NCBI RefSeq assembly: GCF_003019035.1
Contig: NZ_CP027447.1
Direction: 5' to 3' (one strand)
Source: Escherichia coli
Lineage (GTDB): Bacteria > Pseudomonadota > Gammaproteobacteria > Enterobacterales > Enterobacteriaceae
Length of the DNA: 64,000 bases
How positions within the stretch are numbered: position 1 is the first letter of the stretch; every line of letters begins with the position of its first letter. The translations under genes were made by a program, and so were the position numbers. The notes beneath the pieces are model-generated. The model was not told the origin of the DNA. It did not search any database and worked only from the letters and a program-made list of their open reading frames with translations. This document shows, piece by piece, positions 40,202-58,097 of the stretch.

Positions 40202-40218
40202 TTAAACGGAGCTTAAAC
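40202..40218 (-). promoter_or_regulatory. PhoP box (direct repeat GTTTAA-N5-GTTTAA) for the putative mgrR promoter
   Basis: Perfect hexamer direct repeat with 11-bp periodicity on the minus strand; overlaps the dgcZ stop codon. Confidence 0.45.
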
Positions 40219-41103
40219 TCGGTGAATCACGTTTTGTTCGTCAATAAACATACAGCGATTTCTTCCGGTTTGCTTACCCTCATACATTGCCCGGTCCGCT
40301 CTTCCAATGACCACATCCAGAGGCTCTTCAGGAAATGCGCGACTCACACCAGCAGTCACGGTAATGTTGATATGCCCTTCAGAATGTGTGATGGCATGGT
40401 TATCGACTAACTGGCAAATTCTGACACCTGCACGACATGCTTCTTCATCATTAGCCGCTTTGACAATAATGATAAATTCTTCGCCACCGTAGCGATAAAC
40501 CGTTTCGTAATCGCGCGTCCAACTGGCTAAGTAAGTTGCCAGGGTGCGTAATACTACATCGCCGATAAAATGCCCGTAGGTATCATTAACCAATTTAAAT
40601 CGGTCAATATCCAACAACATTAAATAAAGATTCAGAGGATCAGCGTTGCGTAACTGATGATCAAAGGATTCATCAAGAACCCGACGCCCCGGCAATCCCG
40701 TCAGAACATCCATATTGCTACGGATCGTCAGCAAATAAATTTTGTAATCGGTTAATGCCGCAGTAAAAGAAAGCAACCCTTCCTGAAAAGCGTCGAAATG
40801 CGCGTCCTGCCAGTGATTTTCAACAATAGCCAGCATTAATTCCCGACCACAGTTATGCATATGTTGATGGGCAGAATCCATTAGCCGAACGTAAGGTAAT
40901 TCATCGTTATCGAGTGGCCCCAGATGATCAATCCACCGACCAAACTGGCACAGTCCATAAGAATGGTTATCCGTTATTTCTGGCTTACTGGCATCTCTCG
41001 CGACCACGCTGTGAAACATACTTACCAGCCACTGGTAGTGGGCATCGATAGCCTTATTGAGATTTAACAAGATGGCATCAATTTCCGTTGTCTTCTTGAT
41101 CAT
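40213..41103 (-). CDS. dgcZ: Zinc-regulated diguanylate cyclase DgcZ (YdeH), 296 aa from MIKKTTE
   Basis: CZB zinc-binding domain plus GGDEF domain with GGEEF motif (…YRYGGEEFII…). Confidence 0.9.
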   Translation of the reverse strand: MIKKTTEIDAILLNLNKAIDAHYQWLVSMFHSVVARDASKPEITDNHSYGLCQFGRWIDHLGPLDNDELPYVRLMDSAHQHMHNCGRELMLAIVENHWQDAHFDAFQEGLLSFTAALTDYKIYLLTIRSNMDVLTGLPGRRVLDESFDHQLRNADPLNLYLMLLDIDRFKLVNDTYGHFIGDVVLRTLATYLASWTRDYETVYRYGGEEFIIIVKAANDEEACRAGVRICQLVDNHAITHSEGHINITVTAGVSRAFPEEPLDVVIGRADRAMYEGKQTGRNRCMFIDEQNVIHRV

Positions 41104-41357
41104 TGCCACTCCTTTTTCACAGTTCCTTGTGCGCGCTATTCTAACGGGAGAAAAGCAAAATTACGTCAATATTTTCATAGAAATCCGAAGTTATGAGTCA
41201 TCTCTGAGATAACATTGTGATTTGAAACAAAATCAGCAGATAAAAAAGTGTTTAATTCTGTAAATTAACCCTGCATTATCGCAATTAAAAGGATGACAAA
41301 TAACATAACCCAATAACCTAATGGCCCCGTAGTTCAGGCCATCAGGCTAATTTATTT

Positions 41358-41750
41358 TTATTTCTGCAAATGAGTGACCCGAACGACGGCCGGAGCGCTT
41401 TTCTTATCCAGACTTCCGCTAATGTTGATCATCTGGTCCGGCTGAACTTCTCGTCCATCAAAGACTGCCGCAGGAATAACAACATTAATTTCACCGCTCT
41501 TATCGCGAAAAACGTAACGGTCTTCTCCTTTGTGAGAAATCAAATTACCGCGCAGTGAAACCGAAGCGCCATCATGCATGGTTTTTGCGAAATCAACGGT
41601 CATTTTTTTTGCATCATCGGTTCCGCGATAGCCATCTTCTATTGCATGAGGCGGCGGTGGCGCTGCATCCTGTTTTAATCCGCCCTGGTCATCTGCCAAC
41701 GCATAAGGCATGACAAGAAAACTTGCTAATACAATGGCCTGAAATTTCAT
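41358..41750 (-). CDS. ydeI: Periplasmic OB-fold stress protein YdeI (BOF/YgiW family)
   Basis: Signal peptide [19 protein letters not shown]; 130 aa. Confidence 0.85.
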
Positions 41751-41993
41751 ACTGACTCCTTAATTGCGTTTGGTTTGACTTATAAAGTCTGGTTGCTATT
41801 TTTATAATTGCCAAATAAGAATACTGCCAATTGTTATAAGGCATTTAAAATCAGGCTACTAACTGTCAAATATTCAGAGAATTTAACTCACTAAGGTTAA
41901 GAAGAAGATTAAAGAGTCTTAAACATATTTCAGAACAATCAGATTTATAAATTTGAAAATTATTATAACGGAAGAGTATACAAAAAAAGTAAT

Positions 41994-42071
41994 TTTGCTG
42001 GCGACTGCGAAACGGCATTCGCATTAGCGGTGAAGTTTGCCCTCGCCCAACTGCTGCAATTACTGCTATAA
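41994..42071 (+). pseudogene. ydeJ: 3' remnant of a CinA-family gene (ydeJ-like), about 26 codons
   Basis: In-frame tail …AGDCETAFALAVKFALAQLLQLLL* resembles the C-terminus of CinA/PncC-family proteins; no start codon or upstream homology, only AT-rich sequence precedes it. Confidence 0.35.
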
Positions 42072-42115
42072 CGAGGCTGGTCTGGCGATAAATCCAGGCC
42101 AGCCATTGGTGGTGT

Positions 42116-44161
42116 TTATACGTTCAAGCCACGATGTTGCAGCATCGGCATAATCTGAGGTGCCTTACCGCGCCATTGTCGATACAGGCGTTCCAGATCT
42201 TCGCTGTTACCTCTGGAAAGAATCGCCTCGCGAAAACGCAGCCCATTTTCACGCGTTAATCCGCCCTGCTCAACAAACCACTGATAACCATCATCGGCCA
42301 ACATTTGCGTCCACAGATAAGCGTAATAACCCGCGGCATATCCGCCACCAAAAATATGGGCGAAATAACTGCTGCGATAGCGTGGCGGTATAGCGGGAAG
42401 ATCCATATTTTCCGCCACCAGCGCCCGCAATTCGAAATCATCGACATCCTGCATTGCTTCGTTTTCTTCCAGGCAATGCCAGCGCATATCGAGAAGTGCG
42501 GCGCTAAGCAGTTCGCTCATCTCATACCCTTTATTGAACAGGCTGGCATTACGCATTTTCTGTTGCAGTTCGTCAGGCATCGCTGCCCCGCTCTGATAAT
42601 GCCGGGCGTAGCGAGCGAATACCTGCGGATGCGTTGCCCAGTGTTCGTTGATTTGCGACGGAAATTCGACAAAATCACGCGGCGTGTTGGTGCCGGAAAG
42701 CGTGGCATAACGCTGGCAGGCAAACAGGCCGTGCAGCGTATGACCAAATTCATGGAATAAGGTTATTACATCATCCCAGAGTAACAACGCAGGCTCCCCA
42801 GCAGCGGGTTTCTGATAATTGCAGACGTTATAAATTACCGGGTGCGTTTCATTCAGCGTTGATTGCTCAACAAAATTGCCCATCCATGCGCCGCCGCTTT
42901 TTGAATCACGGGCGAAGAAATCACCGTAAAATAACGCCAGCCCCACGCCATTATGATCAAAAATTTCCCACACCCGAACGTCAGGATGGTAGACAGGAAT
43001 ATCAAAACGTTCGACAAACTTAATACCGAAGAGCTGATTCGCGGTCCAGAATACACCTTCATTCAACACCGTGTTTAATTCAAAATATGGCTTGAGCTGC
43101 GACTCATCGAGATCGAATTTCTCACGTCTTACCTGCTCGGCATAAAATGCCCAGTCCCACGGCTGCGCGCTAAACCCGCCCTGCTGCTTATCGATAACCG
43201 CCTGTATGGAGGCTAATTCATCGCTTGCACGTTGACGCGCCGCTGGAACAATTTCCCGCATAAAGTTGAGTGCTGCTTCAGGTGTTTTTGCCATCTGATC
43301 GGCGATTTTCCATGCGGCATAATGAGGAAAACCAAGTAATGTTGCCTGTTGTGCACGGATCTCCACCAGACGTTGAATGATAGCGCGGGTATCATTGGCA
43401 TCATTTTTTTCCGCTCGCGTCCAGCCCGCAATAAACAGTTTTTCACGCGTCGCACGATCGCGCAGTTCAGCAAGCGCTGGTTGCTGGGTGGTATTCAGCA
43501 GCGGAATCAGCCATTTGTTATCCAGACCTTTCTCGCGAGCCGCCTCTGCCGCCAGCGCAATCTCTTGCTCACTCATTCCTGCCAGCTGCGCGATATCGTT
43601 CACAACCAGACCGCCGGATTTATTTGCTGCCAGTAACCGCTGGTTAAACTGGCTGGTCAGGGTCGCAGCTTCTGTATTCAGTACTTTTAATTTTGCTTTA
43701 TCAGCTTGCTTAAGTTTGGCTCCGGCAAGGACAAAACGTTGATGAATCACCTCCACCAGGCGGATGGATTCACTATCAAGCCCCAGGGATTCACGGCGCT
43801 GCCAGACAGCATCTACCCGCGCGAATAATTCCCCGTTCAGATAGATATCATTCGCAAGTTCCGCCAGTTCAGCGGAAAACTGTTCATCAAGACGCTGTAA
43901 TTCATCATTGGTATGCGCCGCAGTCATCGCAAAAAAGACGCTGGTAACGCGGGTAAGTAATTCTCCGCTTTGTTCCAGTGCCAGAATAGTATTGTTGAAA
44001 TCAGGCGTTTGCGGGTTAAGCGCGATGGCAGTAATTTCTGCCCGCTTTTGCAGCATTCCCTCATCGAATGCCGGGCGATAGTGATGATTGGCAATTTGAT
44101 CAAAATGGGGAGCCAGATACGGCAGTGTGCTTTGCACAAGGAAAGGATTCATTGTTGTCAT
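42116..44161 (-). CDS. dcp: Dipeptidyl carboxypeptidase II (M3 metallopeptidase), 681 aa from MTTMNPF
   Basis: HEFGH zinc-binding motif (…TLFHEFGHTLHG…); the track ORF is a 22-codon upstream extension. Confidence 0.9.
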   Translation of the reverse strand: MTTMNPFLVQSTLPYLAPHFDQIANHHYRPAFDEGMLQKRAEITAIALNPQTPDFNNTILALEQSGELLTRVTSVFFAMTAAHTNDELQRLDEQFSAELAELANDIYLNGELFARVDAVWQRRESLGLDSESIRLVEVIHQRFVLAGAKLKQADKAKLKVLNTEAATLTSQFNQRLLAANKSGGLVVNDIAQLAGMSEQEIALAAEAAREKGLDNKWLIPLLNTTQQPALAELRDRATREKLFIAGWTRAEKNDANDTRAIIQRLVEIRAQQATLLGFPHYAAWKIADQMAKTPEAALNFMREIVPAARQRASDELASIQAVIDKQQGGFSAQPWDWAFYAEQVRREKFDLDESQLKPYFELNTVLNEGVFWTANQLFGIKFVERFDIPVYHPDVRVWEIFDHNGVGLALFYGDFFARDSKSGGAWMGNFVEQSTLNETHPVIYNVCNYQKPAAGEPALLLWDDVITLFHEFGHTLHGLFACQRYATLSGTNTPRDFVEFPSQINEHWATHPQVFARYARHYQSGAAMPDELQQKMRNASLFNKGYEMSELLSAALLDMRWHCLEENEAMQDVDDFELRALVAENMDLPAIPPRYRSSYFAHIFGGGYAAGYYAYLWTQMLADDGYQWFVEQGGLTRENGLRFREAILSRGNSEDLERLYRQWRGKAPQIMPMLQHRGLNV

Positions 44162-50087: not shown

Positions 50088-50403
50088 TATAATAAACTTA
50101 CTTTTTTATCATTTTTCCACTTTAACAACATTTTGCTCCACTTTTCCACGACCAAACAACTTGAAATCTGGTTAAAATAACACGCAACACTATTCTTCTT
50201 CCTTGAGTCCGCCCGGAACTCGAAAAACAAACCGAGTTAAAGCCATTTCTCACAAAACCGATTTTGGGTCTCACCAAAATTACGGGGTTGCATACGCATT
50301 CGTTTATTTTCGAACGTGTACATACAAATATGCACAAAAATAATCAAAATTATTTTCTGAGATGCATTATGATATGAACACCAATTTCGTATAGAGTCTC
50401 ACT

Positions 50404-50994
50404 ATGTCTCGAATTTTTGCTTACTGTCGGATATCAACGCTGGATCAGACCATCGAAAATCAACGCCGGGAAATCGAAAGTGCAGGTTTTAAAATCAAAC
50501 CTCAGCAAATAATCGAAGAACACATTAGCGGCTCAGCAGCAACCAGTGAGCGTCCTGGTTTTAACCGGTTGCTTGCTCGCCTGAAATGTGGTGATCAATT
50601 GATTGTGACAAAACTGGATCGCCTTGGTTGTAATGCAATGGATATCAGGAAAACAGTGGAACAACTGACCGAAACAGGTATCAGAGTGCATTGCTTAGCA
50701 TTGGGGGGCATTGACCTGACCAGTCCAACAGGAAAAATGATGATGCACGTAATTTCAGCAGTCGCTGAATTTGAACGAGACCTTTTACTTGAACGCACTC
50801 ATTCCGGGATAGTAAGAGCCCGCGGCGCAGGGAAACGTTTTGGTCGACCACCTGTGTTAAATGAAGAACAGAAACAGGTGGTATTCGAACGAATTAAGTC
50901 AGGTGTAAGTATAAGTGCCATTGCCCGGGAATTCAAAACCTCGCGGCAAACCATTTTAAGAGCCAAAGCAAAACTTCAGACACCTGATATATAA
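50404..50994 (+). CDS. pin: Serine recombinase, Pin/Gin/Hin-family DNA invertase (196 aa)
   Basis: N-terminal resolvase catalytic domain (…[10 protein letters not shown]…) and C-terminal HTH; convergent with the tail-fibre genes. Confidence 0.9.
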
Positions 50995-51091
50995 AAAATA
51001 ATCTCGGTGTGAGATGCTTTACGTCTTCCAAGCCCCCTTCCTTGCCGTAAATGGAAAGATACATCTAATTATAGAATTTATATGTTTTACC

Positions 51092-51208
51092 CTACGGCAG
51101 TGCTGGCCATTCAATATCCTGTGCAGTTGACGTATCAACACGGTTCAGCAATACCCGATACTTTTTCCATGCTTCCAGCAACGAGGTTTCTTCCTCCGTT
51201 GCATATAC
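51092..51208 (-). pseudogene. tfa: 3' remnant of a tail-fibre assembly gene (tfa), about 38 codons
   Basis: Frame encodes …[38 protein letters not shown], matching the conserved Tfa C-terminus; homology stops abruptly upstream. Confidence 0.6.
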
Positions 51209-51221
51209 AGCCCACCTTTTT

Positions 51222-51515
51222 TCACCCACGATTAACCAACAGCCAGACCAGCAGACACGCCACCACCGGCACAGCAAAATCCATCAGGCTTGCCACATCC
51301 CACGCGCGCGGATCAAAACCGCCCCACCACGGCATATTCATTCGCTTGCCATGCCCGAACATTTCAATCCAGCGATATTCTGCCTGGGTATGTTCACGCG
51401 CAATGAAGAACGTACAACCGGCTATCGCTCCGTAAGCCCAGTTTCCGGTAAAAAGACCAACCAGTATCTGCGCAGCCACAGCACAAAGTGCATGAAGTAA
51501 GGGGCTTATATCCAT
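51222..51515 (-). CDS. Hypothetical small membrane protein (97 aa, two predicted TM segments)
   Basis: Hydrophobic stretches [28 protein letters not shown] and [15 protein letters not shown]; no lipobox; lies where the tfa body is expected. Confidence 0.5.
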
Positions 51516-51527
51516 TATTTCCTCCTT

Positions 51528-51806
51528 TCAGCTCCATTCCCGAAGCGGTGTTTCCAGCTCCACGACATAATCAGAGAATACAGAAACATCAAACAAGTCA
51601 TCAAGAATGCGAATGTTGACAAAATAACCGTTATTCCGGATACAGACAGGTTCTCCCTCTTCAGTTACCCCTGTTTCTGTGTAGGTGAAACCAATTTCAT
51701 CGACTAACAGTTTATTCTGGAGGTCTTCATCTTCCTCCCAGTCAAGAGATGACAGGAAGGATTTAAACTCTCTGTTACCAGGAAATTTCAAAGTTAAATC
51801 TTTCAT
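51528..51806 (-). CDS. Hypothetical small acidic protein (92 aa); possible fibre chaperone or moron product
   Basis: ORF immediately downstream of, and 4-nt overlapping, stf; Asp/Glu-rich; no resemblance to Tfa that I can see. Confidence 0.5.
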   Translation of the reverse strand: MKDLTLKFPGNREFKSFLSSLDWEEDEDLQNKLLVDEIGFTYTETGVTEEGEPVCIRNNGYFVNIRILDDLFDVSVFSDYVVELETPLREWS

Positions 51807-53833
51807 ACTGCCTCCTTGATTTGCCTGTCATTTAATTCTTTAAACCAGACTCTGAAATTTCTGATGTGTCCAAACAAATGACGCGTTCCTGCTGCGGTCT
51901 GCCCACCAAACCGGTACGATGTTGCTGTAACTCCAAATATTTTACCATTAAGGTTTGTTGTATAATTACCATTGCATATTGCATTTACTGATAAATCAGA
52001 TTTAGCTCTCACACCCACAATGAACCTTTCTCCATCTGAGGAAATTTGTGGCTGAACCATTCCTACGTTGGCGCTTATCTTTCCTGTTGAAACAAACCCC
52101 AGCGATAAATAATTATCATCAATACTGTGCCCTCCAACATCAAATATCCTTGGCGCAACATTGGGCGGTGTACTCCAGTTCCTCCTTACTTCGCACAATA
52201 CTGTAAAAGGCCGTGTTGACAGGTTATTCGCCGAGGGGATAGTAACCACATCACTTGCGCGTGTTGTTGGCATTGTAGTTACAATAAATGACGATGCCGT
52301 ATTGCCCAGTTCAATTTGCGGCGTCGTCATGGTTAATGTTGAGTCATCATAGAATGGCTCATTACTTATTTTATTTGTCATATAAAAAGCACAGTTAACG
52401 GTATCAATGTCCGTATTAGCTGTATAAGTGGCCTCATAGTAGGTCCACTCGCCCTGTTGTTCAGCTTTGGCTGTTATAAGGGATGTATTACCGCTTACTG
52501 TTGCGATCCGGGTATCCAGATCAAGATAAGAGTCAGCAGAGAATGTATCTGTTCCACCAATAATAACTGAAACTCTTAACCTGCATCGTGCTTTAGCGCC
52601 TTTAACCCGGCACGAAAAAGTGAAACATTCACCACTTGCCAGCGGGAATCTGTCTGCTGCAACCACACCATGCACAGTATAGCCACCTGTTGTTCCCACT
52701 ATACTTTCCGTGGGTGTCACCGTGGCATAATTGAACCCCTGTTTATCAGTGCCAAATGTTTTATTCAGTGCGGAATGAACAGTCCATGAGTCTGGTTTAT
52801 TTGAGTTCCTCAGATAATTTGTCCTCTGTCCTTCAATCAATAAGCCATCGCGCTCAAATCGCGGTTCGTCAACTTCAGCAAGCTTGAGTTGGCCGGACTT
52901 ATTAATATACGTTGCTGTTGAAGCACGTTTAAACTTAACAATCTTGTCGCCTGGCATTGTTATTTCATCGTCACCAATAACAATCTTTTTATAAGATGGC
53001 GAAAAACCCGTAATCATATCCAGCGAATCGTTAAACGGTATCCACACATCAGGCAGCGGCGGCACTATATTCGCATAGGGCTCTGCAGTCACTTCCGCTG
53101 CGGCTTCTGCGCGGTCTGCCGCCTTTTCAGCTCGTGTCGCTGCCGACAGAGCCTCATCCTTTTTCTGCCCGGCCTTTGTTGCGTCTGCTGCGGCCTCCCG
53201 CGCTTTTGTGGTGGCGACTCCGGCATTTTCAGCGGCTGACTCTGCATTACGGCGGGAAGCCTCTTCACTGTCTGCGGAGGCTTCTTCTGACGCACGGGCA
53301 TTTGTCTCTGAACGTTCTGCCGCTGTTGCTGCGTTTTGTGCGGCTGTTTTTGAAGAAGCTGCCGCTTTCGCGCTGTTACCTGCATTCGTCTCTGATGTTT
53401 TCGCCGCGTTCCTGGACGATGCCGCTGCTGTTTCTGATTTCTTTGCTGCCGCTGCGCTCTGAGAGGCGGCTTCAGCGTTGCGTGCTGCTTCTTCCACCAT
53501 TGCCTCAAAACGACGCAATGCCTCCGGCATGACATCATCTTCCGTCATGGCACCGAGAAAATCATTCAGCGTACCAGGTCTGGAACCTTCATAGACGGTA
53601 ATGGTTCCGGCATGTGAAGGCGGAAAACCTTCAACCAGCAGGGTGACGCTGTACTGGCCATACTCGACATCCATGCTGTAACGCCCGGCTTCATCCGGAT
53701 TTTCAGAGGCTACCGTGTTCACCAGTACCGTGGTGCTGTTACGCTTTGCCTTCAGTTGAATAGTGCAGTTCTGTATTGGTTTTCCCGCACCATCTTTCAG
53801 CACACCTGAGATTTTTACTGCTGCCATATCCAC
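51803..53833 (-). CDS. stf: Side tail fibre protein Stf (676 aa) with lambda-type N-terminus and lectin-like C-terminal domain
   Basis: N-terminus MDMAAVKISGVLKDGAGKPIQNCTIQLKAKRN… matches lambda Stf; Ala-rich coiled segment; C-terminus …HLFGHIRNFRVWFKELNDRQIKEAV resembles the terminal strand of Laminin-G/concanavalin-like domains. Confidence 0.85.
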   Translation of the reverse strand: MDMAAVKISGVLKDGAGKPIQNCTIQLKAKRNSTTVLVNTVASENPDEAGRYSMDVEYGQYSVTLLVEGFPPSHAGTITVYEGSRPGTLNDFLGAMTEDDVMPEALRRFEAMVEEAARNAEAASQSAAAAKKSETAAASSRNAAKTSETNAGNSAKAAASSKTAAQNAATAAERSETNARASEEASADSEEASRRNAESAAENAGVATTKAREAAADATKAGQKKDEALSAATRAEKAADRAEAAAEVTAEPYANIVPPLPDVWIPFNDSLDMITGFSPSYKKIVIGDDEITMPGDKIVKFKRASTATYINKSGQLKLAEVDEPRFERDGLLIEGQRTNYLRNSNKPDSWTVHSALNKTFGTDKQGFNYATVTPTESIVGTTGGYTVHGVVAADRFPLASGECFTFSCRVKGAKARCRLRVSVIIGGTDTFSADSYLDLDTRIATVSGNTSLITAKAEQQGEWTYYEATYTANTDIDTVNCAFYMTNKISNEPFYDDSTLTMTTPQIELGNTASSFIVTTMPTTRASDVVTIPSANNLSTRPFTVLCEVRRNWSTPPNVAPRIFDVGGHSIDDNYLSLGFVSTGKISANVGMVQPQISSDGERFIVGVRAKSDLSVNAICNGNYTTNLNGKIFGVTATSYRFGGQTAAGTRHLFGHIRNFRVWFKELNDRQIKEAV

Positions 53834-53891
53834 TCCACAAAAAAGCCCGCCTGAACCGGCGGGCTGTCATAACACTGTGTTACCTGGCTAA

Positions 53892-54491
53892 TCAGAATTT
53901 ATAACCGACACCCACGATGAAACCGTCAGTGCGCCAGTCACCACTGCCGGAACCTTCATAAGCAAGGTCAATGGCCACGGATTCGGTCGGGTTAAACTGC
54001 ACGCCAGCCCCCCACGCCAGAGACGTGTTGCTGTGGCGACCGTCATCACTTCCGGTCAGCACATCGTGCGTTTTCCCCTTGTTGTCAGTTACGCGGAGAT
54101 AATCCCCGGAGAAGGTCGACACACGGCTGTAAGCCATACCCGCCATCGCATACGCGCTGAACCATTCATTCACGCGCACAGACGGCCCCGCCATCACGCT
54201 GAACCAGCGGTTACGCACGGAATCTTCATGCCAGCGGGTATCGCTGTAATGCGTTTTTTGCTCATCTTTGGCATTGGCATAACTGAATGACGTCACCAGC
54301 CCCAGCGTGTCCGTAAACTCATAACGGTATTTCACGTTAATCCCGTTCAGATCATCGCTGCCGGGAACGTTCGTCGAGGCATGAAGATACCCCGCGCTCA
54401 GCGTGGACTGATGTTCAGACGCCCATGCAGGCGCACCGGATACGGCCAGACAAATGGCTACGGACAAAATGGCGGCATAAAGTTTACGCAT
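53892..54491 (-). CDS. lom: Lom outer-membrane protein (Ail/PagC/Lom family)
   Basis: Signal peptide plus 8-strand beta-barrel family sequence ending …GFIVGVGYKF. Confidence 0.9.
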   Translation of the reverse strand: MRKLYAAILSVAICLAVSGAPAWASEHQSTLSAGYLHASTNVPGSDDLNGINVKYRYEFTDTLGLVTSFSYANAKDEQKTHYSDTRWHEDSVRNRWFSVMAGPSVRVNEWFSAYAMAGMAYSRVSTFSGDYLRVTDNKGKTHDVLTGSDDGRHSNTSLAWGAGVQFNPTESVAIDLAYEGSGSGDWRTDGFIVGVGYKF

Positions 54492-54557
54492 AATTACCTC
54501 TCGCTTTTCTGCAATAAAAAAGGCGTCATTTCTGACGCCCGTTATGGGTTATAAAAT

Positions 54558-57500
54558 TCAGCTGATACTGATGCCTGCGGTGGCTTTCTTCATCACCACA
54601 ACCAGCAAATCGCTGATACTTGCTGTGGGATACCAGTCATTTACCAGCCATGCTGACACCGAAAACTCCAGCGTCATGTGGCCGTGACCAGCTGGCATAT
54701 CAATAACGCCACTGTAAATCAGCGTATTATCCAGCGCGGTACGGTTATAAATTTCAGCACCGTTTTTCCGCACTATCAGACGGCATGAGGAGTAAATATC
54801 AGTATGCTCTCTCTCATGTTTAGCACCGCTGAATGCCACCGCCGGAATAACAATCTGCCGGTCAAACGGCTGATCGTCATAAATCCTGACGGTAATGGTC
54901 CCTGATGGCCACCGCTCCGGTGCCCGGGAGTCCCGCGGGAAAGCCTTACCCACTGTTTTGACAATATCGCCTTCAATCTGGTTGGCTGACAGTTTCCCTT
55001 TAATCTGACAGTTCTCATTTATCGTAACGTTGTTGAGCGTCCCGGCGTTCGCATTCACACTGCCACTGATATCCGCATTTTTCGCCGTCAGTCGCCCGTC
55101 CGGTGTCAGGGAAAATGCCGGAGGATTACCGCCGCTGGTAATGGTGGGAGCCGTCAGATATTTCAGGAACACGTCATTCATGAATATCTGATCGCCCTGA
55201 CCAACAAACATCGGCTTTGTGTTGCCATTCGCAGGATTAATCATCGCAATCCTGTCTGCCGCCAGCAGCACCTGACTCTGCATGCCGTCGGGGGTGTTCT
55301 CAATACCGGCACCGATACCCGCAATATAAAGGCGTCCGTCCTGCATCTGCTGCAGCTTCACTGCCCACATGCTGTTCAGGTTATTATTTGTATCAACCTG
55401 AACCTTCTGTATCTGCTGGATCGCTGCACTCTGGTCTTCCAGTTTCTTATTGACGGTCTGTGTTATTTCATTGCTGACATCCGTTATGGACGTCCTGATT
55501 TCAGTCAGGTCAGGCGCAAGCTGACCGTTATCAATCTGCGTCCACAGCTCCTGAGCCAGATGGGTTTTCCCTATCTCGCCTTTGAAAAAATCCAGATAGC
55601 CGGATGCATCATCACTCGGCTGACCAACAGCCTCCACGAATGCCGATTTGCCAACGGTGTTCACACTGCGAACATAAAAATAATAATCATGGCCCGGTTT
55701 GATATTGATACTGGCGGCTATCCAGTACAGCGCCGTACCAAGATAACGCGCGCTGGTTTCAACCTGCCTGATATCAGCAATCCGTTTTTCCGAGAACCAG
55801 AACTCAAACTGTACCGTCGGATCATAAACCGCAAGATGCGGCGTGGCGGTTATCTGAAAATAGCCCGGCGTCAGCTCAATCCGCGACGGCGCTGCCGGTG
55901 CGGCAATCCGGAACGATACCGACGCCGGATCGCCCTGCTGCCCCCACGCATTTACTGCCCGGACTGTCAGCCTGTAGTTCCCCAGAGCCAGTTGTGTGAA
56001 GCGGTAAGTGGTTTCCGTCGTCCGGGCCGTGCTGACCAGCCGCTCACTGCCGTCATCCGCTGCCACGGTCAGGCGAAGCAGGAAGCTCACGCCCTTCACC
56101 ACCTTCGGTGTGTCCCATCGCGCCAGCACCTGATATTCCCCGCTGTCTGCAGTGACTTCTGCGGTCAGGTGCTGCACTGCTGGCGGCGTGACACCATTCA
56201 CCGTGCCGCTCTGGTCACCGTCAAAGTGCGCCCCGTTATCCACGATGGCTTCTTTCTCCGGTACATGCTGCACGGCAGTGATGGCATACGTACCGTCATC
56301 GTTCTCACGGATACTCACACAGCGGAACAGACGCTGGCGCAGCGTCGGCAGCTTCAGCCCCCATACGCTGTATTCAGCAACACCGTCAGGAACACGGCTC
56401 ACTTTTACCTTCACGCCGTCGGTGACGGACTGAACCTCCACGCTGACCGGATTGCCACTTCCGTCAACCAGGCTTATCAGCGTGGTACCGGAGGATGGCA
56501 GCGTGATTTCACGGTCGAGCGTCAGCGTCCGGGTCTGGCTGTTCACCGCCAGCACGCGACCACCGATGCTGATACCGGCATAGTCATCATCACAGATTTC
56601 AATGACATCGCCCGGTACATGGCGAAGCCCTTCTGCGCCCACGCTGAAGTCCACGGTCTGCGTTTCCAGCAGTTCCGTTTTAATCAGCCACAGCCCGGCG
56701 CGGTGCGCCTGCCCCCGGCTGGTACAGCCAAAAGCATCCATCTTCGTGACGTTACGACCGTAACGGGCAATGGCCTGCGTGTCCTCCACAAGCTCTGTTG
56801 CCGTTTCCCAGCCGTTATCCGGGTCAATCCAGTTCACTTCAACGGCATTATGGCGGTCCTTCAGGGCGCTGAAGCTGTAGCGGAACGGCGCGCCATCATC
56901 CGGCATCACCACATTACTGCGGTTATAGGTCCACACCTTATCCGACGGTCGGTCCTGCACGAACGTCAGCGTCTGCCCGTTCCATACCGGCATACAGCGC
57001 ATCGCCGAGCAGAAATCACTGAGCACATCCCACGCCTTGCGCTGTGTGGTCAGGTACGCATTACAGGTAATGCGCGGCTCCGTGCCGCCAAAGCCGTCCG
57101 GCACCGACTGGTCGCAGTACTGGCCGATGACATACAGCGCCCATTTATCCACATCCGCCGCACCAAGACGTTTCCCCATGCCGTAGCGCGGATGGGTCAG
57201 CATATCCCACAGACACCAGGCCATGTTGTTGCTGTATGCTGGCTTAAACGTTCCGTCCCAGATACCGCTGTATTGCCGCGTCAGCGGGTTATAGTTCGAC
57301 GGCACCTGCAGAATACGCCCGCGCAGATGATAATTACGGCTCACCTGCTGGCTGCCGAACTGCTCCGAGTCCACCTGCACGCCGACCAGTGCCGTGTTCG
57401 GGTAGCACTGTTTCACATCGATGATTTCGGTGTATGACGACCAGAGCGTTTTGTTCTGCAGCTGGTCTGTAGTGCTGTCCGGCGTCATCCTGCGCATCCG

Positions 57501-58034
57501 GATACTGAACGGGCGCGGCGGCAGGTTACCCACCACCACCGAGGCCAGATACTGTGAGGTGGTTTTGCCTTTAATGGTGATGTCTTTTTCCGTCACCCAG
57601 CCACCGTTACGTTGTATCTGAACCAGCAGGCGGACTTCCGACGGATTCCGGTCACCCTTTGAGGTGGTTTCCACCAGTGCCTGCACACCAAAGGTAAAGC
57701 GCAGACGGTCGATATTTGCAGACGTGATGGTGCGGGTTATCGGCGTGTCGTATTTCACTTCCGTACCCAGCACCGTCTCGGAGCCGGAGGATTCAAAACC
57801 CTCCGGCGGTGTCTGCTCCTGCTCACCGGCCCGGAACACCACCGTGACACCGGCGATGTTGGTATTCCCTTCGCTATCCAGCACCGGCGTACTGTTCAGC
57901 AGCACGCTTTTTAATCCATCCACCGGACCTTCAATCGGCCCTTCGCTGATGGCATCGATCACACTCAGTAACTGCGTGGATTTCAGGTTGTCCTTCGCTT
58001 CGCGCGGGGTATGCCCCTTACTGCTGCCTTTACC
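54558..58034 (-). CDS. J: Tail tip host-specificity protein J (start at [15 protein letters not shown])
   Basis: N-terminal ~850 aa match lambda J as I recall it; C-terminal ~300 aa diverge; the track ORF extends 16 codons upstream. Confidence 0.9.
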
Positions 58035-58097
58035 CATTCCTAACGCTCCATAAACGACAAAACCGCCCGGAGGCGGTTTCACATAAAATATTTTGCA

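What the first reader, a model, noticed from the sequence alone, without database searches (positions are those of the whole stretch)
41751..42115. ydeJ appears deleted, leaving a short 3' remnant in an AT-rich gap
Between ydeI and dcp there is only 365 bp with no ORF of 60 codons or more, yet an in-frame tail …GDCETAFALAVKFALAQLLQLLL* (41994-42071) resembles the C-terminus of CinA/PncC-family proteins such as YdeJ. This suggests an ancestral ydeJ whose 5' portion was lost and replaced by AT-rich sequence. A GC-rich imperfect hairpin follows at ~42073-42102.
Basis: inference. Interest (0 to 1): 0.3.

Follow-up and report, generated by a model that had tools for sequence, protein, structure and literature searches.

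The report
Old ydeJ deletion scar in E. coli
This E. coli strain lost most of the small gene ydeJ through one clean 475-base deletion; about 30% of sequenced E. coli genomes share the same scar and RefSeq already annotates it as a pseudogene, so the finding is real but ordinary.

Summary
Window 41751-42115 is a 365-bp gap between ydeI and dcp. It has no ORF of 60 codons or more. It contains an 80-nt 3' remnant of ydeJ (about 41992-42071, + strand), followed by a GC-rich hairpin (core 42075-42104).

Alignment with K-12 shows one clean 475-bp deletion. It removed the last ~36 bp of the ydeI-ydeJ spacer and the first ~439 bp of ydeJ.

The AT-rich 240 bp is the native ydeI-ydeJ spacer: ~90% identical to K-12, with 27.5% versus 28.4% GC.

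The window is 100% identical, over the 2 kb compared, to strain SCU-301 (phylogroup F). NCBI's pipeline already annotates the remnant there as an incomplete CDS.

The same junction occurs in 1643 of 5426 complete E. coli genomes. It was verified by string match in phylogroup D, F and B2 strains. B2 strains carry a second, 505-bp deletion that also destroyed ydeI. ydeJ is intact in about 3618 genomes.

This is an ancient, single-origin, lineage-marking gene loss. It is already known and of low interest. The one point of mild interest is that Salmonella YdeJ (RdsA) is reported to affect DNA supercoiling.

The parts
41358..41750 (-). ydeI (YdeI-family OB-fold stress-tolerance protein, 130 aa). 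It is intact and forms the left boundary of the interval.
   Evidence: ORF. Annotated as ydeI, WP_000671737.1, in SCU-301, K-12 and SCU-313.
41751..41991 (.). Retained part of the native divergent ydeI-ydeJ spacer (27.5% GC). It presumably carries the ydeI promoter and regulatory sites and the upstream part of the former ydeJ promoter region.
   Evidence: Aligns colinearly with K-12 L002 2001-2239/2240 at ~90% identity. The K-12 spacer is 275 bp with 28.4% GC. RcdA is reported to bind the ydeI-ydeJ spacer (PMC3535384).
41991..41993 (.). Deletion junction (GTA|A|TTTTG). 475 bp of the K-12-type sequence is missing here, with a 1-nt ambiguity (A at 41992) and no inserted bases.
   Evidence: Alignment A1 and breakpoint mapping. 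The same 28-nt junction string is present in the window, SCU-313 (D) and JJ1887 (B2), and absent from K-12. An 80-bp junction query matches 1643 of 5426 genomes.
41992..42071 (+). ydeJ 3' remnant: the last 26 codons plus the stop codon of a 172-aa CinA-domain protein. It is a pseudogene fragment with no usable start codon.
   Evidence: PGAP pseudogene CDS at window 41991-42071, noted 'incomplete; missing N-terminus'. NF002972 E 1.2e-06, positions 148-172/175. BLASTP against K-12 YdeJ E 1e-07. No ORF of 20 aa or more ends at 42071 in this frame.
42072..42108 (.). GC-rich hairpin in the 44-bp gap between the convergent ydeJ remnant and dcp. The core is an 11-bp stem (42075-42085 with 42094-42104) and an 8-nt loop. 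It is probably a bidirectional transcript-end or stabiliser element, but not a canonical intrinsic terminator. A T at 42081 in this lineage makes the stem imperfect.
   Evidence: Folds at -23.5 (+) and -18.2 (-) kcal/mol, with 0 of 200 shuffles folding as well. K-12 and SCU-313 have C at that stem position, and the K-12 sequence folds with an uninterrupted stem. The terminator scan did not call it because there is no T-run.
42116..44161 (-). dcp (peptidyl-dipeptidase Dcp, 681 aa). It is intact and forms the right boundary. Its stop codon lies 11 nt from the hairpin.
   Evidence: ORF. Annotated as dcp in SCU-301.

Best explanation
The interval is the scar of one ancient 475-bp deletion. The deletion removed the last ~36 bp of the ydeI-ydeJ spacer, which held the ribosome-binding region and probably the proximal promoter, together with the first ~439 bp of ydeJ. 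What remains is the native AT-rich spacer joined directly to the last 80 nt of ydeJ, followed by the hairpin that ydeJ shares with the convergent dcp. The junction has only 1 nt of ambiguity and no filler DNA, so I infer an illegitimate (homology-independent) deletion. An IS element, a recombination site or a gene replacement is not indicated. The remnant cannot be translated as YdeJ: it lacks a start codon and 85% of the CinA domain. The strain is therefore a natural ydeJ null, while ydeI and dcp stay intact. The identical junction in phylogroups D, F and B2 points to a single event deep in the E. coli tree. B2 later lost most of ydeI through a second, 505-bp deletion nested against the first. 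Shown here: the anatomy, the junction, the homology and the population frequency. Inferred: the deletion mechanism, the role of the hairpin, and any phenotypic consequence.
For: - **Source.** The window is 100% identical over 41000-43000 to E. coli SCU-301. The literature assigns that strain to phylogroup F / ST967 (PMC11251922).
- **Reference arrangement.** K-12 has ydeI, a 275-bp spacer, a 519-bp ydeJ, a 43-bp gap and dcp.
- **Alignment.** The three-way alignment shows one gap and colinear flanks.
- **Breakpoints.** They fall at K-12 L002 2240/2241-2714/2715, a 475-bp gap.
- **No replacement.** Spacer GC is 27.5% versus 28.4% in K-12 and identity is 90.4%.
- **Identity of the lost gene.** YdeJ is a CinA-domain protein (PF02464, E 9e-48) and matches the equivalog NF002972 (E 5e-99). 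The remnant hits NF002972 positions 148-172.
- **Existing annotation.** PGAP annotates the remnant as an incomplete pseudogene in SCU-301, SCU-313 and JJ1887.
- **Survey of 5426 complete genomes.** The ydeJ 5' part is present in 3618. The junction is present in 1643. The full 365-bp window-type interval is present in 770.
- **Shared junction.** The junction string is identical in F, D and B2 strains and absent from K-12.
- **Second deletion in B2.** It is 505 bp with 2-nt AA microhomology.
- **Full-length relatives elsewhere.** YdeJ homologues with the same FAGDCET tail exist outside Escherichia: K. pneumoniae L043, 57% identity, and Salmonella ydeJ/rdsA (PMC7387798).
Against: - No Escherichia outgroup (E. 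fergusonii, E. albertii, cryptic clades) was retrieved. My genome contigs pattern was too degenerate. Polarity therefore rests on the logic that a 3' fragment homologous to a full-length conserved gene must be derived.
- Single origin is inferred from junction identity. Spread of the allele between lineages by homologous recombination is not excluded.
- Phylogroup assignment was checked for only a handful of named strains.
- About 165 genomes show neither state and were not characterised.
- The hairpin lacks a U-tract, so its role as a terminator is unproven.
Confidence: 0.95

Rival explanations
1. Replacement: the 5' part of ydeJ was replaced by foreign or unrelated AT-rich DNA.
For: The left 240 bp of the interval has only 27.5% GC, against 49% for the window as a whole.
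Against: Those 240 bp align colinearly with the K-12 ydeI-ydeJ spacer at ~90% identity, and the K-12 spacer is just as AT-rich at 28.4% GC. About 66% of the 365-bp query (positions 1-242) matches genomes with an intact ydeJ, upstream of that gene. No extra bases sit at the junction.
Confidence: 0.01
2. Reverse polarity: the short interval is ancestral, and ydeJ was inserted in the A/B1/E lineages.
For: No Escherichia outgroup was examined here. In K. pneumoniae the YdeJ homologue is not next to ydeI or dcp.
Against: The window keeps 80 nt that are homologous to, and in frame with, the 3' end of a complete CinA-domain gene. An insertion cannot leave a pre-existing homologous tail. The missing segment also includes 36 bp of spacer, so its limits are not gene-shaped. 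Full-length YdeJ occurs in Salmonella and Klebsiella.
Confidence: 0.02
3. The remnant region is still functional: a residual ydeJ promoter drives a short non-coding RNA or micropeptide that ends at the hairpin, or the deletion fusion created a new promoter for ydeI.
For: Promoter-like sites occur on the + strand at 41775-41802 and 41824-41851. One on the - strand, at 42004-41975, spans the junction. The hairpin is retained. The Salmonella ydeJ promoter is active and supercoiling-sensitive (PMC7387798).
Against: The number of promoter-like sites is no higher than in shuffles (3 versus 2.2 +/- 1.4). Rfam gives no match. No ORF of 20 aa or more ends at the remnant's stop codon in its frame. The remnant accumulates non-synonymous changes between lineages, for example L to P and A to T in SCU-313. 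B2 strains deleted most of the spacer without keeping these sites.
Confidence: 0.05
4. Assembly or sequencing artefact in this one genome.
For: None specific. Neighbouring prophage genes in the source record carry many frameshift flags.
Against: The same junction is found in 1643 independent complete genomes.
Confidence: 0

Closest known systems
E. coli K-12 ydeJ (b1537), also called Salmonella RdsA; a single-domain CinA/PncC-like protein (Pfam PF02464; NCBIfam NF002972)
   Same: It sits at the same chromosomal position between ydeI and dcp on the same strand. The last 26 codons and the stop codon are homologous, and the remnant plus the downstream gap is 91% identical at DNA level. The downstream hairpin is the same.
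   Different: The window lacks codons 1-146 and the 36 bp upstream, so no CinA domain is detectable (Pfam gives no hit). It is a pseudogene fragment and not a gene.
RefSeq/PGAP pseudogene annotation of the same remnant (e.g. HHJ43_RS24375 in SCU-301, HHJ46_RS25840 in SCU-313, AX202_RS30880 in JJ1887)
   Same: Identical feature and coordinates (window 41991-42071), noted as 'incomplete; partial in the middle of a contig; missing N-terminus'.
   Different: The annotation gives no account of the deletion size, junction or population distribution. It also carries a product name ('2-oxo-tetronate isomerase') that the literature assigns to a different protein, YgbM.
B2-type ydeI-ydeJ double scar (UTI89, ST131, Nissle 1917, ATCC 25922, the type strain ATCC 11775)
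   Same: Same ydeJ deletion junction, same remnant and same hairpin.
   Different: B2 has an additional 505-bp deletion that removes the first ~304 bp of ydeI and ~200 bp of the spacer. The window keeps ydeI and the spacer intact.
Rho-independent bidirectional terminators between convergent genes
   Same: A GC-rich 11-bp stem-loop lies in a 44-bp convergent gap, 3 nt after the ydeJ stop and 11 nt after the dcp stop. It is stable on both strands.
   Different: There is no U-tract on either strand, and the consensus scan does not call it. Its function is untested.

Membership tests
CinA/PncC-domain protein (Pfam PF02464); YdeJ equivalog NF002972 | A complete CinA domain of ~155 aa that scores above the curated cut-off | tested here: not met
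   The remnant (26 aa) has no Pfam hit. Its NF002972 score is 28.3 bits against a cut-off of 201. K-12 YdeJ scores 162 bits (Pfam) and 329 bits (NF002972).
CinA/PncC-domain protein (Pfam PF02464); YdeJ equivalog NF002972 | Sequence homology of the fragment to the YdeJ C-terminus | tested here: met
   NF002972 E 1.2e-06 at profile positions 148-172 of 175. BLASTP E 1e-07. The DNA of the remnant plus its 3' gap is 91% identical to K-12.
CinA/PncC-domain protein (Pfam PF02464); YdeJ equivalog NF002972 | Orthologous position: between ydeI and dcp, convergent with dcp | tested here: met
   K-12, SCU-301, SCU-313 and JJ1887 annotations.
Expressed gene (as opposed to pseudogene) | An in-frame start codon and translation-initiation region | tested here: not met
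   The remnant's frame is open from ~41913, but no ORF of 20 aa or more ends at 42071. The native start codon and 36 bp upstream are deleted.
Simple deletion scar (as opposed to replacement or insertion) | Colinear flanks, with no non-homologous DNA at the junction | tested here: met
   Alignment A1 shows a single 475-bp gap with a 1-nt junction ambiguity.
Simple deletion scar (as opposed to replacement or insertion) | Single origin: the same junction in all carriers | tested here: met
   The identical 28-nt junction string is present in F, D and B2 representatives. An 80-bp junction query matches 1643 genomes at 95-100% identity. Transfer of the allele by recombination is not excluded.
Intrinsic (Rho-independent) terminator | A GC-rich stem-loop | tested here: met
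   11-bp core stem, -23.5 and -18.2 kcal/mol on the two strands, z -3.9 and -3.5.
Intrinsic (Rho-independent) terminator | A U-tract immediately 3' of the stem | tested here: not met
   The terminator scan does not call it. The tails are AUUGGUGGUGUUUAU on the + strand and UCGUUAUAGCAGUAA on the - strand.
Intrinsic (Rho-independent) terminator | Transcript 3' ends map to the hairpin | not testable with these tools
   This needs Term-seq or 3' RACE.
Known RNA family (Rfam 15) | A covariance-model match in 41000-42600 | tested here: not met
   No match at E <= 1.

The most novel reading that the evidence does not exclude
The ydeJ deletion is a fixed, ancient marker of the D/F/B2 side of E. coli, and B2 later also lost ydeI. 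On this reading the two deletions are stepwise, possibly adaptive decay of a stress and supercoiling module. These lineages, which include the main extraintestinal pathogens, would lack the YdeJ/RdsA brake on negative supercoiling reported in Salmonella. They would then differ from A/B1/E strains in supercoiling set-point or in ydeI regulation.
Probability: 0.1. Interest if true: 0.35.

Novelty: already known. Interest (0 to 1): 0.08.

Why it matters
It matters little. This is a correctly spotted pseudogene scar that public annotation already flags.

It has modest practical value:
- It is a clean three-state marker at one locus: ydeJ intact; ydeJ deleted; ydeJ and ydeI both deleted. The states separate A/B1/E-type, D/F-type and B2-type genomes among the strains I checked.
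- About a third of E. coli are natural ydeJ nulls. That is relevant for anyone who extends the Salmonella RdsA/supercoiling result, or the ydeJ-promoter supercoiling reporter, to E. coli.
- The product name attached to ydeJ in current RefSeq annotation appears to be wrong.

Tried and rejected
- **Outgroup scan.** I scanned genome contigs with a degenerate pattern for FAGDCET (TTYGCNGGNGAYTGYGARAC) to find outgroup loci. The pattern was too loose. Only K. pneumoniae L043 held a real YdeJ homologue, and it is not syntenic.
- **RcdA box.** I searched for TTGTNNACA in the K-12 locus. There is no match in the ydeI-ydeJ spacer, so I could not place the reported RcdA site.
- **Rfam.** A search of 41000-42600 at E <= 1 found nothing.
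- **Promoter and terminator scan.** The counts are no higher than in shuffles, and the hairpin is not called.
- **Counting the B2 haplotype.** I used an 80-bp query across the second junction. The figure of 1122 is inflated, because the tool joins the two half-matches that lie 505 bp apart in window-type genomes. I use 1643 - 770, or about 873, instead.
- **Literature searches.** Two searches were badly phrased and gave nothing useful. One search then showed that '2-oxo-tetronate isomerase' belongs to YgbM.
- **Explanations rejected.** Replacement by foreign DNA, insertion of ydeJ in K-12-type strains, an assembly artefact, and IS-mediated deletion (no IS sequence or target duplication at the junction).

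Full report
**What is in the window.** The region reads dgcZ (40213-41109, -), ydeI (41358-41750, -), a 365-bp gap (41751-42115), dcp (42116-44161, -) and ydfG (from 44283, +). No ORF of 60 codons or more overlaps the gap; the longest are 52, 51 and 47 aa. The gap has two different halves. Positions 41751-41990 have 27.5% GC and 41991-42115 have 52.8% GC, against 49% for the whole window. The frame that ends at 42071 reads ...NFAGDCETAFALAVKFALAQLLQLLL*.

**Source and existing annotation.** Window 41000-43000 is 100% identical to E. coli strain SCU-301, NZ_CP051751.1. This is a human commensal that the literature assigns to phylogroup F / ST967 (PMC11251922). In that RefSeq record the tail is already annotated as a pseudogene CDS at the equivalent of window 41991-42071. 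The feature is therefore already known to public annotation.

**What happened.** K-12 has ydeI, a 275-bp spacer, a 519-bp ydeJ (172 aa), a 43-bp gap and dcp. A three-way alignment of the window, K-12 and the B2 strain JJ1887 shows colinear flanks and one large gap.

Breakpoint mapping puts the missing K-12 segment at L002 2240/2241-2714/2715. That is 475 bp: the last ~36 bp of the spacer plus the first ~439 bp of ydeJ. The junction in the window reads ...AAAAAAAGTA|A|TTTTGCTGG.... It has a single ambiguous A (41992) and no filler bases. No IS sequence, target-site duplication or long direct repeat is present. I therefore infer an illegitimate, essentially homology-independent deletion. That mechanism is an inference.

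The AT-rich left half is not replacement DNA. It aligns base for base with the K-12 ydeI-ydeJ spacer at 90.4% identity. The K-12 spacer is equally AT-rich, at 28.4% GC. In genomes with an intact ydeJ, positions 1-242 of the 365-bp query match just upstream of ydeJ.

**Identity of the lost gene.** K-12 YdeJ is a single-domain CinA protein. It matches Pfam PF02464 (E 9.2e-48), TIGR00199 PncC_domain (E 1.5e-60) and the equivalog NF002972 (E 5e-99).

The 26-residue remnant gives no Pfam hit. It matches NF002972 positions 148-172 of 175 (E 1.2e-06) and K-12 YdeJ residues 147-162 (BLASTP E 1e-07).

The remnant's frame is open back to about 41913. However, no ORF of 20 aa or more ends at 42071 in that frame. 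The native start codon and the 36 bp upstream of it are gone. The strain is a ydeJ null.

The literature describes E. coli YdeJ as an inactive paralogue of the NMN deamidase PncC/YgaD (PMC3855486). In Salmonella the gene was renamed rdsA. Its promoter is supercoiling-sensitive, and its deletion makes DNA more negatively supercoiled (PMC7387798).

**Population survey (5426 complete E. coli genomes).**

| State | Genomes |
|---|---|
| First 438 bp of ydeJ present | 3618 |
| 80-bp junction query matches at 80% coverage or more | 1643 |
| Whole 365-bp window-type interval present | 770 |

The remaining ~873 junction carriers have the B2-type arrangement. This number is derived by subtraction. About 165 genomes show neither state. 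Some of them carry IS1 or IS5 events at the locus (rows H8, H28, H40).

The exact 28-nt junction string is present in the window (F), SCU-313 (phylogroup D / ST69) and JJ1887 (B2). It is absent from K-12. Junction carriers listed include UTI89, an O25b:H4-ST131 strain, the type strain DSM 30083 (ATCC 11775), Nissle 1917 and ATCC 25922. Intact ydeJ is seen in K-12, O157:H7, O104:H4 and O111:H2.

Among genomes with the window-type interval, identity to the window ranges from 94.5% to 100%. The spacer and tail differ from K-12 by 9-10%, whereas flanking genes differ by 2-3%. That contrast is what I would expect of weakly constrained sequence between long-separated lineages.

Together these results indicate one old deletion that is inherited by, or shared among, the D, F and B2 lineages.

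**Second deletion in B2.** JJ1887 keeps only the last 90 bp of ydeI. That stub is joined to the spacer at the equivalent of window 41950. The deletion is 505 bp with a 2-nt (AA) microhomology. It removes ~304 bp of ydeI and ~200 bp of the spacer. Because the B2 arrangement carries the same ydeJ junction, I infer that it derives from the window-type haplotype. The locus thus shows stepwise decay: intact, then ydeJ lost (D, F), then ydeJ and ydeI both lost (B2).

**The hairpin.** The core stem GGCUGGUCUGG (42075-42085) pairs with CCAGGCCAGCC (42094-42104) around an 8-nt loop. It folds at -23.5 kcal/mol on the + strand and -18.2 kcal/mol on the - strand, and no shuffle of 200 does as well.

It lies 3 nt after the ydeJ stop and 11 nt after the dcp stop, and it is conserved in K-12. 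K-12 and SCU-313 have C where the window has T at 42081, and the K-12 sequence folds with an uninterrupted stem.

No U-tract follows on either strand, and the consensus scan does not call it. I read it as a probable shared transcript-end or stabiliser element for the convergent pair. That reading is an inference and is untested.

**Polarity and outgroups.** My single genome-contig scan used a pattern that was too degenerate and returned almost only chance matches. The one true homologue it found is in K. pneumoniae ATCC 13883. That protein is 170 aa, 57% identical, and ends ...CFAGDCETVV.... It sits between an Hsp20-like gene and a BLUF-EAL gene, not beside ydeI or dcp.

Polarity therefore rests on logic. 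An 80-nt in-frame fragment homologous to the 3' end of a conserved full-length gene, sitting at that gene's exact position, must be derived. The missing segment also includes non-coding spacer, which an inserted gene cassette would not explain.

**Other checks.** Rfam gives no match in 41000-42600. Promoter-like sites are no more frequent than in shuffles. The RcdA box consensus has no exact match in the K-12 spacer, although RcdA is reported to bind that spacer (PMC3535384).

**Verdict.** The feature is an ordinary, ancient, lineage-marking deletion pseudogene that RefSeq already annotates. Novelty: already known. Interest: low.

Noticed in passing
window 41991-42071; L002 2276-2794: RefSeq/PGAP and NCBIfam NF002972 name YdeJ (a CinA-domain protein) '2-oxo-tetronate isomerase'. 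The papers I found assign that activity (EC 5.3.1.35) to b2739 YgbM/OtnI (PMC12506659, PMC12821715). YdeJ is described as an inactive PncC paralogue or as RdsA. The product name looks like an error in the naming model.
   Followed up: partly
L003 1914-2166 (JJ1887), equivalent to window 41447-41951: B2 strains (UTI89, ST131, Nissle 1917, ATCC 25922, the type strain ATCC 11775) carry a second 505-bp deletion with 2-nt microhomology. It removes most of ydeI and ~200 bp of the spacer, on top of the same ydeJ junction. These strains lack both YdeI and YdeJ.
   Followed up: yes
window 31270-37446: A ~6.2-kb accessory block lies between eamA and marB: a GntR regulator, PTS IIB/IIC/IIA components, a carbohydrate porin and a 6-phospho-beta-glucosidase. 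In the D strain SCU-313, eamA is followed directly by marB.
   Followed up: no
window 42081: A T at this position in the left arm of the hairpin, where K-12 and SCU-313 have C, weakens the stem on the dcp-sense strand (A·C mismatch; -18.2 kcal/mol versus -24.9 kcal/mol in K-12) but not on the + strand (G·U pair).
   Followed up: partly
window ~50400-64000: A lambdoid prophage tail region is followed by pinQ, ydfK and ynfT and a 5'-truncated ydfJ. Six of the phage genes (gpG, tape measure, minor tail L, C40 peptidase, tail assembly, gpJ) are flagged as frameshifted in the source record. This may be real decay or homopolymer sequencing errors.
   Followed up: no
window 41751-41990 compared with flanking genes: The spacer and the ydeJ tail differ from K-12 by 9-10%, whereas dgcZ, ydeI and dcp differ by 2-3%. 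The YdeI protein is identical (WP_000671737.1) in A, D and F strains. ydeI is therefore under strong constraint even though its upstream region is diverged.
   Followed up: partly
rows H8, H28, H40 (other E. coli genomes): The same locus carries independent IS1 and IS5 insertions or deletions in some strains, for example IS1 between ydeJ and dcp in MB46 and IS1 with loss of ydeI and ydeJ in RM10740. This short region is repeatedly rearranged.
   Followed up: no
S. flexneri ydeJ/SF1559 intergenic region (literature): A Shigella sRNA screen lists two candidate sRNAs (Ssr13, Ssr37) next to ydeJ (PMC4782007). I did not map them onto the window, and Rfam shows nothing here.
   Followed up: no
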